Origin: Escherichia coli
Lineage (GTDB): Bacteria > Pseudomonadota > Gammaproteobacteria > Enterobacterales > Enterobacteriaceae
DNA length: 64,000 nt
Assembly: GCF_017348835.2 (NCBI RefSeq)
Contig: NZ_CP071375.1
Reading direction: 5' to 3' (one strand)
Shown here: in pieces, positions 26,201-29,200 of the stretch
Numbering within the stretch: position 1 is the first letter of the stretch
How the letters are laid out: each line of letters opens with the position of its first letter
Position numbers: made by a program

Positions 26201-29200
26201 CCGTATCCGCACGGCTGGGATGTGTGGAGCAACGGCATCAAAAAGTTTATGGCTGAAAAGGGGATTCAGCCGGACCTGATCTACACCTCGGAAGAAGCCG
26301 ATGCGCCACAGTATATGGAACATCTGGGGATCGAAACGGTGCTGGTAGATCCGAAACGTACCTTTATGAGTATCAGCGGTGCACAGATCCGCGAAAACCC
26401 GTTCCGCTACTGGGAATATATTCCTACGGAAGTGAAGCCGTTCTTTGTGCGTACCGTGGCGATCCTTGGCGGCGAGTCGAGCGGTAAATCCACCCTGGTA
26501 AACAAACTTGCCAATATCTTCAATACCACCAGTGCGTGGGAATATGGTCGCGATTATGTCTTTTCACACCTCGGCGGTGATGAGATCGCATTGCAGTATT
26601 CCGACTACGATAAAATCGCGCTGGGCCACGCACAATACATTGATTTTGCAGTGAAATACGCCAATAAAGTGGCGTTTATTGACACTGATTTTGTCACTAC
26701 CCAGGCGTTCTGCAAAAAGTACGAAGGGCGGGAACATCCGTTCGTGCAGGCGCTGATTGATGAATACCGTTTCGATCTGGTGATCCTGCTGGAGAACAAC
26801 ACGCCGTGGGTGGCGGATGGTTTACGCAGCCTCGGCAGTTCGGTGGATCGCAAAGAGTTCCAGAACTTGCTGGTAGATATGCTGGAAGAGAACAATATCG
26901 AATTCGTGCGGGTTGAAGAGGACGATTATGACAGCCGTTTCCTGCGCTGCGTAGAGCTGGTGCGGGAGATGATGGGGGAGCAGGGATAACCGTGACGAAA
27001 CTGCTCAAAGGCGAGGTATAAAATGAGTTTTTTTGATGAGTTGAAAACCTCTCTGGAAGAGAATGTCGAGATTAGAAAGAACCTGTACGGGTGACCCGCT
27101 ACGAAATTGCGGATGCTTAGGCTATTCGTGAGCAACTTCATACTCCAACCGACCGGTTGCGTAGCCAGAATGCAATCAAATCTGACAGTTCGCTTCGGCG
27201 CGCGCTTTGGTGTATTTACCGGAGTAAATCAGCGTGCCGTGGAAAATTATGCGCAGCGCTTCTGCTGATTTGCGTACCTTCGCAGATGATAAGTCCAGCA
27301 CTGGCGCGCTGCGCGTAATACTCCGCCATCATGTCAATCGTAACGTCACCCGCACCGGCGCGGGAACGCGTCATCGGTGGCAGTACAATACGGTTTATTA
27401 ATGGCAACGCATTCAGCGCATATTTAGCAAATTACGTAATGGGTTCCTCGCGCGATTATTTATACAGTTCGGCACTCATGGTGACGGTATTGCCCATGCG
27501 AGCGCTGGTAATTTTGTATTCAGAGGCGTTCATCTCTTTCGCTTTCTGCGCAATAACCGCTTCAGCGGAATCCAGTGTTGTACCGGTTGCTGTCACGCTT
27601 TGCGCCGATGCGTTAAACGCCGCGACAGAGAAAAGAGAAGCCGTAAAAATTGCGATGATCGTTTTCATGTTTATATTCCAGAGTGTCTTAATTGTTTGGC
27701 GTTTATTAACGCGATGGGGAGAGAATACGCCTGCTGCCTGATAACATAAATGATACAAATGGCAATAGACTATTCTGTTTTTGTTAATAATCAGACGCCG
27801 GACGTGCCGACGTCTGTCAATCGCATCAGGCAACAAAGTTGTCCTTCAGCGCCTTGAGACCATCCCGATAGATGCCGGTAAACAGCGCCTCGGCTTCTTC
27901 GTCCGTCACATTCACCGGGGTGAATTCACCGAACCATTCCACACGGGAAACCTGGATGTCGGCGGTTTCATGAACGGTAATGGTGGAGAGGTAATCCACC
28001 ACCGGGAACGGTGCCTGAATAATGGAATAGGTATAACTGCGTTGACGGTTATTAAACGCTTCCAGACGTTCAACCACAGTGCCGCCGTCAGAGGTTGTCA
28101 GCGAACGAACGCGACCGCCTTCTGTCACCACACTTTTCGGGATGAATGGCAGCCAGTCTGGCAGCGCATCAAAGCCGCCCATCAATTGCCATACGGCGTC
28201 GGCAGAAGCCGGAATTTCGATCGATACAGTTGTTTTAGCCATGATAATTTTCTCTTAATTTATAGGGTTACATTGTCAGGGTGTCGACGACGCCGCCATC
28301 GACGCGCAGGGCTGCCCCTGTGGTTGCCGAGGAAAGCGGTGACGCGAGATAAACCGCCAGATTCGCCACTTCTTCCACATCTGCCGCACGCTGGATGATG
28401 GAACTCGGACGCGAGGTTTTAACAAACTCATCGGCCTGTTCACGCGCACTGCGTCCCGATTGTGCAGCGGCATCCGCCAGCATCTCTTTCAGGCCATCGG
28501 TAAAGGTTGGCCCTGGCAGAATGGCGTTGACGGTCACACCGGTCCCTGCCAGTCGTTTCGCCAGACCATGAGAAACCGCCAGATTTGCGGCTTTGGTGAC
28601 GCCGTAGTTGATCATGTCGCCAGGGATTGCCACGCCAGATTCAGACGAGACAAAGATAATCCGCCCCCAGCCCTGTTCCGTCATGCCTGGCGCATAGTGA
28701 CGCGCCAGACGAACGCCGGAGAGGACGTTGACGTTATAGAAGTGCATCCACTCATCATCCGGAACGCTAAAGAAATCTTTATCGTTAAAAATGCCCAGAT
28801 TATTGACCAGCACATCAGCCGTTGGGACTGCAGCGATCAGCGCAGCCACGCCGTCTTCGGTGCTGAGATCCGCCACCACGCCGCGCAGTGACGCTGTGGG
28901 AGTTTGTGCCGCAATCGCAGCCATGGCGTCATCAACGCCGCTCTGTTTACGGCCGACGACAACCACCGTTGCGCCTGCTTTTGCCAGTCCGGCGGCGATA
29001 CCCTGCCCAATGCCGGAGGTTGAGCCGCTGACCACCGCGACTTTACCTGTCAGATCCAGTTTCATCGTTTTCTCACCTGGTTGATTAACGGGTCGGCAGC
29101 GGAGCGTTTTCCGCAACCAGATTTTGACGGCGCATTTCTGCCCAGAATTCAGCCGGAACAGGCGCATTCAGTGCAGCCAGATCTTCTGCCATACGGCCAG

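What the first reader, a model, noticed from the sequence alone, without database searches (positions are those of the whole stretch)
27669..27825. DUF1471 gene set off from the reductase genes by a 157-bp gap
The AKR, SDR and SRPBCC genes are packed 19-25 bp apart, but the 70-aa DUF1471 gene follows a 157-bp spacer. DUF1471 proteins (BhsA/YcfR, YhcN family) are small stress-induced secreted proteins in E. coli, so this one may be independently regulated rather than part of the reductase transcript.
Basis: inference. Interest (0 to 1): 0.3.

Follow-up and report, generated by a model that had tools for sequence, protein, structure and literature searches.

The report
Terminator plus separate promoter before DUF1471 gene
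The 157-base gap is real and is an ordinary operon boundary: it holds the stop signal of a three-gene reductase operon and the conserved, portable start region of a separate small unit (a periplasmic DUF1471 protein plus a second reductase gene that is now only a remnant in E. coli).

Summary
On the minus strand, AKR, SDR and SRPBCC lie 19 and 25 bp apart, and the 70-aa DUF1471 gene follows after 157 bp (27669-27825). The window is an E. coli accessory island between nadR and ettA, present in 482 of 5426 complete genomes.

Comparative evidence supports independent regulation and changes the picture. LysR<->AKR-SDR-SRPBCC is conserved as far as Pseudomonas without DUF1471, and it always ends in a hairpin just after the SRPBCC stop. 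The E. coli hairpin is at 27792-27816, and its stem shows compensatory changes between genera.

DUF1471 is the first gene of a different, portable pair: DUF1471 plus an Old Yellow Enzyme (NemA-like reductase), 11-24 bp apart. This pair stands alone in Kluyvera, [Enterobacter] lignolyticus and Pseudocitrobacter. About 125 bp upstream of DUF1471 travels with the pair in five genomic contexts:
- a palindromic operator, GAATAGTCTATTGC;
- a weak -35, TTTATG, then 17 nt, then a -10, TATTCT;
- a conserved CATC at the predicted start, and a small 5' hairpin.

In E. coli the OYE gene is a deleted remnant (27193-27431).

No transcript data exist. The U-tract is poor, so some read-through is possible. 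The feature is ordinary and of low interest. The unidentified operator is the only mildly novel element.

The parts
27826..28242 (-). SRPBCC (Polyketide_cyc2) gene, the last gene of the conserved LysR-controlled AKR-SDR-SRPBCC operon
27792..27816 (-). Terminator hairpin of the core operon: CAGACGUCGG-CACGU-CCGGCGUCUG, 10 bp, -15.7 kcal/mol, starting 9 nt after the SRPBCC stop codon
   Evidence: Orthologous hairpins have different stem sequences in E. whittamii, T. guamensis (which has no DUF1471), Yokenella and two Klebsiella.
27783..27791 (-). Imperfect U-tract AUUAUUAAC. It overlaps the first bases of the DUF1471 module, and the two modules share a 7-nt overlap, ATTATTA.
   Evidence: The tail score is -2.77, which is marginal. 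The tail fails the simple scanner's rule of at least 5 T in 8 bases.
27778..27790 (-). Conserved distal A/T-rich element TTATTAACAAAAA, about -75 to -63 relative to the predicted start
   Evidence: Alignment A2.
27762..27775 (-). Imperfect palindromic operator GAATAG-T-CTATTGC, centred at about -54. The positions AA.AG.CTATTG are invariant in 10 taxa. It is a perfect GCAATAGTCTATTGC in Pseudocitrobacter and in the metagenome contig L080.
27745..27750 (-). -35-like hexamer TTTATG (3 of 6 matches). The TTT.T positions are invariant.
27722..27727 (-). -10-like hexamer TATTCT, with a 17-nt spacer. The aligned hexamers in other taxa are TATCCT, TATCAT, TACGCT and TGTTCT.
   Evidence: It is the only promoter-like pair that keeps its position across taxa.
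27714..27716 (-). Predicted transcription start (inferred), inside the invariant CATC motif 6-8 nt after the -10
   Evidence: The start position is inferred.
27699..27712 (-). Small 5'-UTR hairpin GCGUU-AAUA-AACGC (-4.9 kcal/mol). A hairpin at the same place has a different stem in Klebsiella, T. odontotermitis, Kluyvera, Pseudocitrobacter and Morganella, and by eye E. whittamii and Yokenella keep a 4-bp GCGU/ACGC stem. It is absent in lignolyticus.
   Evidence: and reading of alignment A2.
27676..27681 (-). Shine-Dalgarno region CTGGAA (CAGGA in most relatives)
27456..27668 (-). DUF1471 gene, 70 aa. It reads as a Sec signal peptide (MKTIIAIFTASLFSVAAFNASA|Q) followed by a 48-aa mature domain. 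It is under purifying selection, with dN/dS of 0.05-0.25.
27193..27431 (-). Remnant of the partner gene, an Old Yellow Enzyme (NemA-like reductase). The start codon is lost, 687 bp are deleted internally relative to Yokenella, and the 3' end is missing.
   Evidence: RefSeq marks a partial pseudogene here.

Best explanation
The 157-bp spacer is the junction of two transcription units that were joined by gene-order rearrangement.

Its promoter-distal 5' part (27783-27816) is the factor-independent terminator of the LysR-controlled AKR-SDR-SRPBCC operon. The rest (27669-27791) is the upstream region of a portable DUF1471-OYE unit. That region contains an A/T-rich element, a palindromic operator (GAATAGTCTATTGC, centred near -54), a weak -35 (TTTATG), a 17-nt spacer and a -10 (TATTCT). 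The predicted start is near 27715. The leader is about 47 nt, with a 5'-proximal stabilising hairpin and a Shine-Dalgarno site.

Because the -35 is poor and a conserved palindrome lies upstream, the promoter is most likely dependent on an unidentified dimeric activator, or on a stress sigma factor. The -10 keeps a C at position 5 (TAnnCT), which resembles RpoS-type promoters.

In the ancestral unit the periplasmic DUF1471 protein was co-transcribed with a cytoplasmic NemA-like ene-reductase, 11-24 bp downstream. This would be a two-compartment response to electrophiles or oxidants, comparable to RclB with RclA. In E. coli the reductase has decayed and DUF1471 is left as a single-gene unit.

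Shown here: gene order, modularity, hairpin conservation with compensatory changes, conservation of the promoter block, and purifying selection on DUF1471. Inferred: termination efficiency, the start site, the identity of the regulator or sigma factor, and the physiological role.
For: - Gaps and gene limits.
- The island is all-or-none in E. coli, present in 482 of 5426 genomes, and the spacer is single-copy.
- The core LysR<->AKR-SDR-SRPBCC module occurs without DUF1471 in Trabulsiella guamensis, Serratia, Ewingella and Pseudomonas, and a related set does in Paraburkholderia.
- A GC-rich hairpin lies 0-25 nt after the SRPBCC stop in nearly all lineages. T-runs follow it in Serratia, T. odontotermitis and Paraburkholderia. 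The E. coli, Yokenella and Klebsiella stems differ at most positions yet stay fully paired.
- The DUF1471-OYE pair stands alone with gaps of 11, 15 and 24 bp in lignolyticus, Kluyvera and L080. It follows SRPBCC in Yokenella with an 18-bp gap, and follows LysR in T. odontotermitis. In Morganella, DUF1471 precedes an AKR.
- The upstream block is conserved in all these contexts. E. coli and lignolyticus share 45 of 47 nt, while 63% of synonymous sites differ in the adjacent gene.
- TTTAT-N17-TAyyCT is the top-scoring site in 5 of 10 taxa and among the top 4 in 8 of 10. It is the only site conserved in position.
- DUF1471 has dN/dS of 0.05-0.25.
- The OYE remnant is mapped.
- RclB is a DUF1471 protein encoded in the rclABC operon downstream of rclA (PMC12096828).
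Against: - There are no transcript, 5'-end or 3'-end data for any island-bearing strain.
- The consensus scan found neither a minus-strand promoter nor a terminator in the spacer. The promoter matches only 7 of 12 consensus positions, and the tail has 4 U in 8.
- Termination may therefore be partial, and DUF1471 may also receive read-through from the LysR-controlled promoter.
- In Yersinia the spacer is 91 bp and lacks the operator, -35 and -10, so the gene can apparently work without this promoter.
- E. whittamii (TGTTCT) and lignolyticus (TACGCT) have weaker -10 hexamers.
- A palindrome centred at -54 is not a classical activator position, so the start-site assignment could be off.
- The regulator is unknown. 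The adjacent LysR operator region shares no motif with the spacer.
Confidence: 0.68

Rival explanations
1. DUF1471 is simply the fourth gene of the reductase operon. The hairpin would be a leaky attenuator or an RNA-stabilising element, and DUF1471 would be expressed mainly by read-through from the LysR-controlled AKR promoter.
For: The genes share a strand. The U-tract is poor, AUUAUUAAC, with a tail score of -2.77. No consensus-grade promoter was found. DUF1471 follows SRPBCC in six genera. Yersinia has a 91-bp spacer without the promoter block.
Against: The core operon lacks DUF1471 in most taxa and carries the same hairpin at its end there. The upstream block and DUF1471 move together to unrelated contexts. 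The block is far more conserved than synonymous sites.
Confidence: 0.2
2. The spacer is a neutral recombination scar and DUF1471 is a decaying passenger, like its OYE partner. In this case the spacer would carry no functional signal.
For: The neighbouring OYE and nadS genes are pseudogenes. The island is accessory, present in 9% of genomes.
Against: DUF1471 is intact in the island-bearing E. coli genomes examined, with dN/dS of 0.05-0.25 against relatives. Operator positions are invariant across 10 taxa as far as Morganella. The hairpin keeps its pairing through compensatory changes.
Confidence: 0.06
3. The spacer encodes a cis-regulatory RNA (riboswitch, thermometer or leader) or a small RNA, rather than a plain promoter.
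For: The whole spacer folds somewhat better than shuffles, with z = -2.6. A small hairpin recurs in the leader.
Against: Rfam gives no match at E <= 1. The predicted leader is only about 47 nt. Its hairpin is 4-9 bp and does not sequester the Shine-Dalgarno site. Conservation is highest upstream of the predicted start and is at the DNA-sequence level (a palindrome), not covariation.
Confidence: 0.05

Closest known systems
rclABC operon of E. coli (RclA flavoprotein reductase, RclB periplasmic DUF1471 protein, RclC membrane protein)
   Same: A small periplasmic DUF1471 protein is encoded next to, and co-directionally with, a cytoplasmic flavin-dependent reductase in a stress unit. RclB is the second-best NCBIfam match of the 70-aa protein (E = 7e-7). 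The description of RclB comes from PMC12096828.
   Different: Here DUF1471 comes first and the reductase is an Old Yellow Enzyme, not an RclA-type disulfide reductase. There is no RclC (DUF417) gene and no adjacent AraC-type RclR. The score is 29 bits against a cut-off of 100, so the protein is not RclB. In the window the reductase is only a remnant.
Monocistronic stress-induced DUF1471 genes (bhsA/ycfR, yhcN, ybiJ, yahO)
   Same: They belong to the same Pfam family, are small proteins with a signal peptide, have their own promoter, and are restricted to Enterobacterales (background from PMC13033631 and PMC12096828).
   Different: The protein here is shorter (70 aa against 85-91). It falls below every equivalog cut-off. 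It has a different, conserved operator, and its ancestral unit was a bicistron with a reductase.
nemRA (NemR-controlled N-ethylmaleimide reductase)
   Same: The partner gene in intact relatives scores 397 bits on the N-ethylmaleimide reductase subfamily model.
   Different: That score is just under the cut-off of 403. No TetR-type NemR gene accompanies the module. From memory (not tested), the operator does not resemble the NemR box.
Canonical intrinsic terminator at an operon end followed by the next unit's promoter
   Same: A GC-rich hairpin lies 9 nt after the stop codon, its pairing is conserved, and promoter elements follow it.
   Different: The U-tract is interrupted by A residues. Its first bases double as the start of the next module's conserved block.

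Membership tests
DUF1471 / YdgH_BhsA-like (PF07338) | Match to the Pfam model above the gathering score | tested here: met
   The score is 43.9 bits against a cut-off of 27, covering residues 24-70.
DUF1471 / YdgH_BhsA-like (PF07338) | N-terminal Sec signal peptide on a small periplasmic protein | tested here: inconclusive
   The sequence shows Lys2, a hydrophobic core and A-S-A|Q at residues 20-23. No signal-peptide predictor was available.
DUF1471 / YdgH_BhsA-like (PF07338) | Restriction to Enterobacterales | tested here: met
   All 81 homologues with a source name come from Escherichia, Kluyvera, Yokenella, Klebsiella, Pseudocitrobacter, Trabulsiella, Morganella, Erwinia or Pantoea.
BhsA / YhcN / RclB / YbiJ (named equivalogs) | NCBIfam equivalog score above the curated cut-off | tested here: not met
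   Scores against cut-offs are 31.2/90, 27.6/125, 29.4/100 and 26.4/110 bits.
Intrinsic (factor-independent) terminator | Stable GC-rich stem-loop just downstream of the last gene | tested here: met
   The stem has 10 bp at -15.7 kcal/mol and starts 9 nt after the stop codon.
Intrinsic (factor-independent) terminator | U-rich tract immediately after the stem | tested here: inconclusive
   AUUAUUAAC has 4 U in 8. It fails the scanner's rule. A TransTermHP-style tail score, using a formula recalled from memory, gives -2.77, which is marginal.
Intrinsic (factor-independent) terminator | Pairing kept through compensatory substitutions in orthologues | tested here: met
   The stem halves CAGACGUCGG, AGGGCGUUGG, GGGGGUGGC and AGGAAUGGCC are all fully paired at the same position. 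A formal column-wise count was not possible because the MAFFT register shifted.
Intrinsic (factor-independent) terminator | Transcript 3' ends at the tract | not testable with these tools
   This needs Term-seq or 3'-RACE.
Sigma-70-type promoter | -10 hexamer with A at position 2 and T at position 6, and a 16-18 nt spacer to a -35 | tested here: met
   TATTCT lies 17 nt after TTTATG. The spacing is identical in 10 taxa.
Sigma-70-type promoter | Consensus strength of at least 9 of 12 matches | tested here: not met
   The pair matches 7 of 12 positions and was not reported by the scan. The position-weight score is 7.6 bits, third best in the spacer.
Sigma-70-type promoter | Mapped primary 5' end | not testable with these tools
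   No transcript data were available.
Same operon as AKR-SDR-SRPBCC | Short intergenic distance, no intervening terminator, and conserved co-occurrence | tested here: not met
   The gap is 157 bp against 19 and 25 bp. A conserved hairpin lies between the genes. DUF1471 is absent from more than 50 loci that carry the core operon.
rclABC-like reductase + DUF1471 unit | DUF1471 gene adjacent to and co-directional with a flavin reductase at operon-type spacing | tested here: met
   The gap to an intact OYE is 11-24 bp in Kluyvera, lignolyticus, Yokenella and L080. In the window only the remnant is left.
rclABC-like reductase + DUF1471 unit | RclC (DUF417) gene and a divergent RclR (AraC) regulator | tested here: not met
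   Neither is present in any of the contexts read.

The most novel reading that the evidence does not exclude
The conserved palindrome GCAATAG-N-CTATTGC, together with its flanking A/T element, may be the operator of an uncharacterised enterobacterial transcription factor. That factor would co-regulate a small mobile stress regulon: the periplasmic 70-aa DUF1471 protein, a cytoplasmic ene-reductase or aldo-keto reductase, and a MoaF-like protein. This would amount to a two-compartment defence against electrophiles that parallels rclABC. E. coli would keep only the periplasmic half.
Probability: 0.25. Interest if true: 0.4.

Novelty: new member of a known kind. Interest (0 to 1): 0.22.

Why it matters
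For annotation, the island between nadR and ettA should be treated as two units, LysR/AKR-SDR-SRPBCC and DUF1471(-OYE remnant), not as one four-gene operon. The short 'hypothetical' pseudogene downstream should be named as an Old Yellow Enzyme remnant.

For biology, the recurrent pairing of a periplasmic DUF1471 protein with a cytoplasmic NAD(P)H reductase is a second example, after RclB/RclA, of this poorly understood family being wired to redox or electrophile detoxification. Its conserved operator gives a concrete handle for finding the regulator and the inducing stress. The effect on understanding of E. coli is small, because the island is accessory and the feature is a normal operon boundary.

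Tried and rejected
- Rfam scan of 26800-31400 at E <= 1 found nothing in the spacer.
- The consensus promoter/terminator scan gave no minus-strand site in the spacer. It was kept as evidence of weakness, not of absence.
- A motif shared between the LysR-AKR operator region and the DUF1471 upstream block was looked for and not found, so control by the island's LysR is unsupported.
- Paralogous copies of the block in E. coli were sought with blastn at E <= 10. It is single-copy and occurs only in the 482 island genomes.
- The metagenome scan for the operator gave 4 true hits, all upstream of DUF1471, and 16 chance hits in unrelated soil bacteria. No new target genes emerged.
- The operator was looked for upstream of MoaF-like genes elsewhere. 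It is present in lignolyticus and, as a variant, in Providencia, but absent in Morganella, Rouxiella and Pantoea, so the regulon idea stays weak.
- By eye and from memory, the block does not convincingly match sites for MarA/SoxS, OxyR, Fur, CpxR, PhoP, RcsB, NsrR, IscR, ArcA or NemR, or sigma-32 or sigma-E promoters. This was not tested formally.
- Alternative promoters TTGCCA-16-TATCAG and the TATCAT hexamer were rejected because they are not conserved in position.
- The 126-aa in-frame upstream extension of the ORF (TTG at 27836) was rejected. Indels in the alignment are not multiples of three, and the signal peptide starts at the ATG at 27668.
- Searches for DUF1471 with N-ethylmaleimide reductase and for the operator sequence found no relevant paper.
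- The PDB sequence search gave no hit for the 70-aa protein.
- A formal covariation count on the terminator was abandoned because MAFFT put the stems out of register.
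Full report
**Observation**

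The window is E. coli chromosome. Between nadR (25736-26989, +) and ettA (31272-32939, -) lies an accessory island whose structural genes are on the minus strand:
- AKR, 29085-30095
- SDR, 28268-29065
- SRPBCC, 27826-28242
- a 70-aa DUF1471 gene, 27456-27668
- a divergent LysR gene, 30229-31116

The gaps are 19, 25 and 157 bp, exactly as reported. RefSeq annotation of the same island in O145:H28 RM12581 gives identical gene limits. The island is all-or-none in E. coli: 482 of 5426 complete genomes carry it, always at this site. The spacer is single-copy.

**What the neighbourhood really is**

A scan of one genome per species with the SRPBCC protein returned 66 loci. I mapped all island proteins onto them.

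The module LysR<->AKR-SDR-SRPBCC is conserved from Escherichia to Serratia, Ewingella and dozens of Pseudomonas, and related versions occur in Paraburkholderia. In the great majority of these loci there is no DUF1471 gene.

DUF1471 follows SRPBCC only in Escherichia, Yokenella, Klebsiella, Yersinia and Providencia. In Trabulsiella odontotermitis it lies on the other side of the island, downstream of LysR. In T. guamensis it is absent.

A homologue search shows the 70-aa protein is a distinct Enterobacterales subfamily. It is a PF07338 member, but it falls far below the NCBIfam cut-offs for BhsA, RclB, YhcN and YbiJ.

Reading the contigs that encode these homologues shows the actual unit. DUF1471 is followed by an intact 365-366-aa Old Yellow Enzyme, which scores 397 bits on the N-ethylmaleimide reductase model. 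The gap between the two genes is:
- 11 bp in [Enterobacter] lignolyticus
- 15 bp in Kluyvera ascorbata
- 18 bp in Yokenella
- 24 bp in metagenome contig L080
- 57 bp in T. odontotermitis
- 70 bp in Pseudocitrobacter

In Kluyvera, lignolyticus, Pseudocitrobacter and L080, none of the AKR/SDR/SRPBCC genes is nearby. In Morganella the gene after DUF1471 is an aldo-keto reductase.

In the window the OYE partner survives only as a remnant at 27193-27431. The start codon is lost, 687 bp are deleted internally relative to Yokenella, and the 3' end is missing.

**The 5' part of the spacer is the terminator of the core operon**

Nine nt after the SRPBCC stop lies a 10-bp GC-rich hairpin (27792-27816, -15.7 kcal/mol), followed by AUUAUUAAC.

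A hairpin occupies the same position in E. whittamii, T. guamensis (no DUF1471), Yokenella and two Klebsiella. Their stems differ at most positions but stay fully paired: CAGACGUCGG, CAGGCGCCGG, AGGGCGUUGG, GGGGGUGGC and AGGAAUGGCC.

In lineages where nothing related follows SRPBCC, the hairpin carries a canonical T-run. This is the case in Serratia (T8-9), T. odontotermitis and Paraburkholderia. The core operon therefore ends after SRPBCC everywhere.

The E. coli tail is weak, with 4 U in 8. It fails the scanner's rule and gets a marginal tail score of -2.77 (formula recalled from memory). Partial read-through is plausible.

**The rest of the spacer is the portable upstream region of the DUF1471 unit**

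Homology with T. guamensis ends at 27785. Homology with the stand-alone modules begins at 27791, so the two overlap by ATTATTA.

From there to the ATG, ten taxa in five different upstream contexts align without length change up to the -10. The conserved elements are:
- TTATTAACAAAAA;
- the palindrome GAATAG-T-CTATTGC, with AA.AG.CTATTG invariant, and a perfect GCAATAGTCTATTGC in Pseudocitrobacter and L080;
- TTTAT at the -35 position;
- exactly 17 nt of variable sequence;
- a TAnnCT hexamer (TATTCT, TATCCT, TATCAT, TACGCT, TGTTCT);
- an invariant CATC 5-7 nt further on.

E. coli and lignolyticus share 45 of 47 nt across the distal block, although 63% of synonymous sites differ in the adjacent gene.

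A position-weight scan shows this -35/-10 pair is the best site in five taxa and within the top four in eight of ten. Every other high-scoring candidate is species-specific. The promoter is weak by consensus, with 7 of 12 matches, and was not called. That weakness, together with the upstream palindrome, fits an activator- or stress-sigma-dependent promoter.

The predicted start near 27715 gives a leader of about 47 nt. Its first 20 nt form a small hairpin (27699-27712). One search found a hairpin there in seven of the ten taxa; by eye E. whittamii and Yokenella also keep a 4-bp GCGU/ACGC stem, and the stems differ between taxa. From general knowledge, 5'-proximal stem-loops of this kind stabilise mRNAs. 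That role is an inference.

Rfam finds nothing here. DUF1471 itself is under purifying selection, with dN/dS of 0.05-0.25.

**Limits and counter-examples**

There are no transcript data, so the start site, terminator efficiency and regulator are all inferences.

In Yersinia the spacer is 91 bp. It keeps a hairpin but lacks the operator, -35 and -10, apparently through a deletion of about 35 bp. There the gene may be co-transcribed with the reductase operon.

The island's LysR operator region is highly conserved but shares no motif with the DUF1471 block, so control by that LysR is unsupported.

The operator recurs upstream of a MoaF-like gene in lignolyticus, with the same architecture. A variant (AAAGACTATTGC) lies upstream of the MoaF-like gene next to DUF1471 in Providencia. 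This hints at a small regulon. However, it is absent upstream of MoaF-like genes in three other genera, and a metagenome scan found no further targets. I could not match the palindrome to any regulator I know.

**Comparison with known systems**

The closest analogue is rclABC, in which the DUF1471 protein RclB is encoded with the reductase RclA and is proposed to lower envelope permeability (PMC12096828). The present unit differs in four ways: gene order, reductase class, the absence of RclC and RclR, and sequence (29 bits against a cut-off of 100).

Other DUF1471 genes such as yhcN have their own promoters and leaders of about 56 nt (PMC13033631), which is consistent with the architecture inferred here. 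No paper links DUF1471 with N-ethylmaleimide reductase.

**Verdict**

The spacer is an ordinary boundary, a terminator followed by a promoter, between two units that were juxtaposed by rearrangement. The added findings are the DUF1471-OYE module, its decayed partner gene in E. coli, and an unassigned conserved operator. Interest is low.

Noticed in passing
window 27193-27431 (-): This is a remnant of an Old Yellow Enzyme (NemA-like reductase) gene. The start codon is lost (ATG to ACG, followed by a TAA), 687 bp are deleted internally relative to Yokenella, and the 3' end is missing. RefSeq lists only a partial 'hypothetical protein' pseudogene here.
   Followed up: yes
window ~27023-27137 (+): nadS is a 55-aa gene downstream of nadR in K-12. 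Here it is a frameshifted, truncated remnant with a deletion of about 10 bp. The island sits between this remnant and ettA. Other E. coli strains carry nadS with a RelE/ParE toxin gene at this site.
   Followed up: partly
window 30096-30228 (LysR-AKR intergenic): The sequence is very strongly conserved from E. coli to Pseudomonas (for example GGACTTAAGT.AGAC.AATTATGTCC). It is presumably the LysR operator and the divergent promoters. It shares no motif with the DUF1471 upstream block.
   Followed up: partly
L072 2000-2027 (+), and L014 ~7227-7238 (-): A second copy of the operator and promoter architecture lies about 95 bp upstream of a 106-aa MoaF_like (PF22036) gene in [Enterobacter] lignolyticus. 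A variant, AAAGACTATTGC, lies upstream of the homologous gene next to DUF1471 in Providencia. It is absent upstream of MoaF-like genes in Morganella (prophage), Rouxiella and Pantoea.
   Followed up: partly
L008 and L009 6418-6505: In Yersinia alsatica and Y. frederiksenii the SRPBCC-DUF1471 spacer is only 91 bp. It has a hairpin without a U-tract and lacks the operator, -35 and -10. DUF1471 may have been captured into the reductase operon there.
   Followed up: partly
L002 (contig JAIJJM010000574.1): This 2.1-kb contig is labelled as a Collinsella sp. MAG, but the island proteins it encodes are 98-100% identical to those of E. coli, and it includes the nadR end. It is almost certainly a mis-binned Escherichia contig.
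   Followed up: no
window 27785-27791: Homology to the core operon (T. guamensis) ends at 27785, and homology to the stand-alone DUF1471 modules starts at 27791. The two modules overlap by the 7 nt ATTATTA, which could be microhomology at the rearrangement junction.
   Followed up: no
L010 1549-2639 (-): The OYE gene of Trabulsiella odontotermitis is split into ORFs of 203 and 126 aa, either by a frameshift or by an assembly error. This suggests the reductase partner may be prone to decay in more than one lineage.
   Followed up: no
L014 6400-12100: In Providencia alcalifaciens the island is larger. After DUF1471 come a MoaF-like gene, what looks by eye like a luciferase-like monooxygenase gene, a membrane-transporter (MFS-like) gene, an intact OYE and a zinc-type alcohol dehydrogenase/quinone reductase-like gene. 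Only the MoaF-like and OYE genes were checked by homology. Overall it reads as a broader detoxification cluster.
   Followed up: no
window 27456-27836 (-): The DUF1471 reading frame stays open for 56 codons upstream to a TTG inside the end of SRPBCC, giving a 126-aa ORF in the mechanical list. This is an artefact and not a longer protein.
   Followed up: yes
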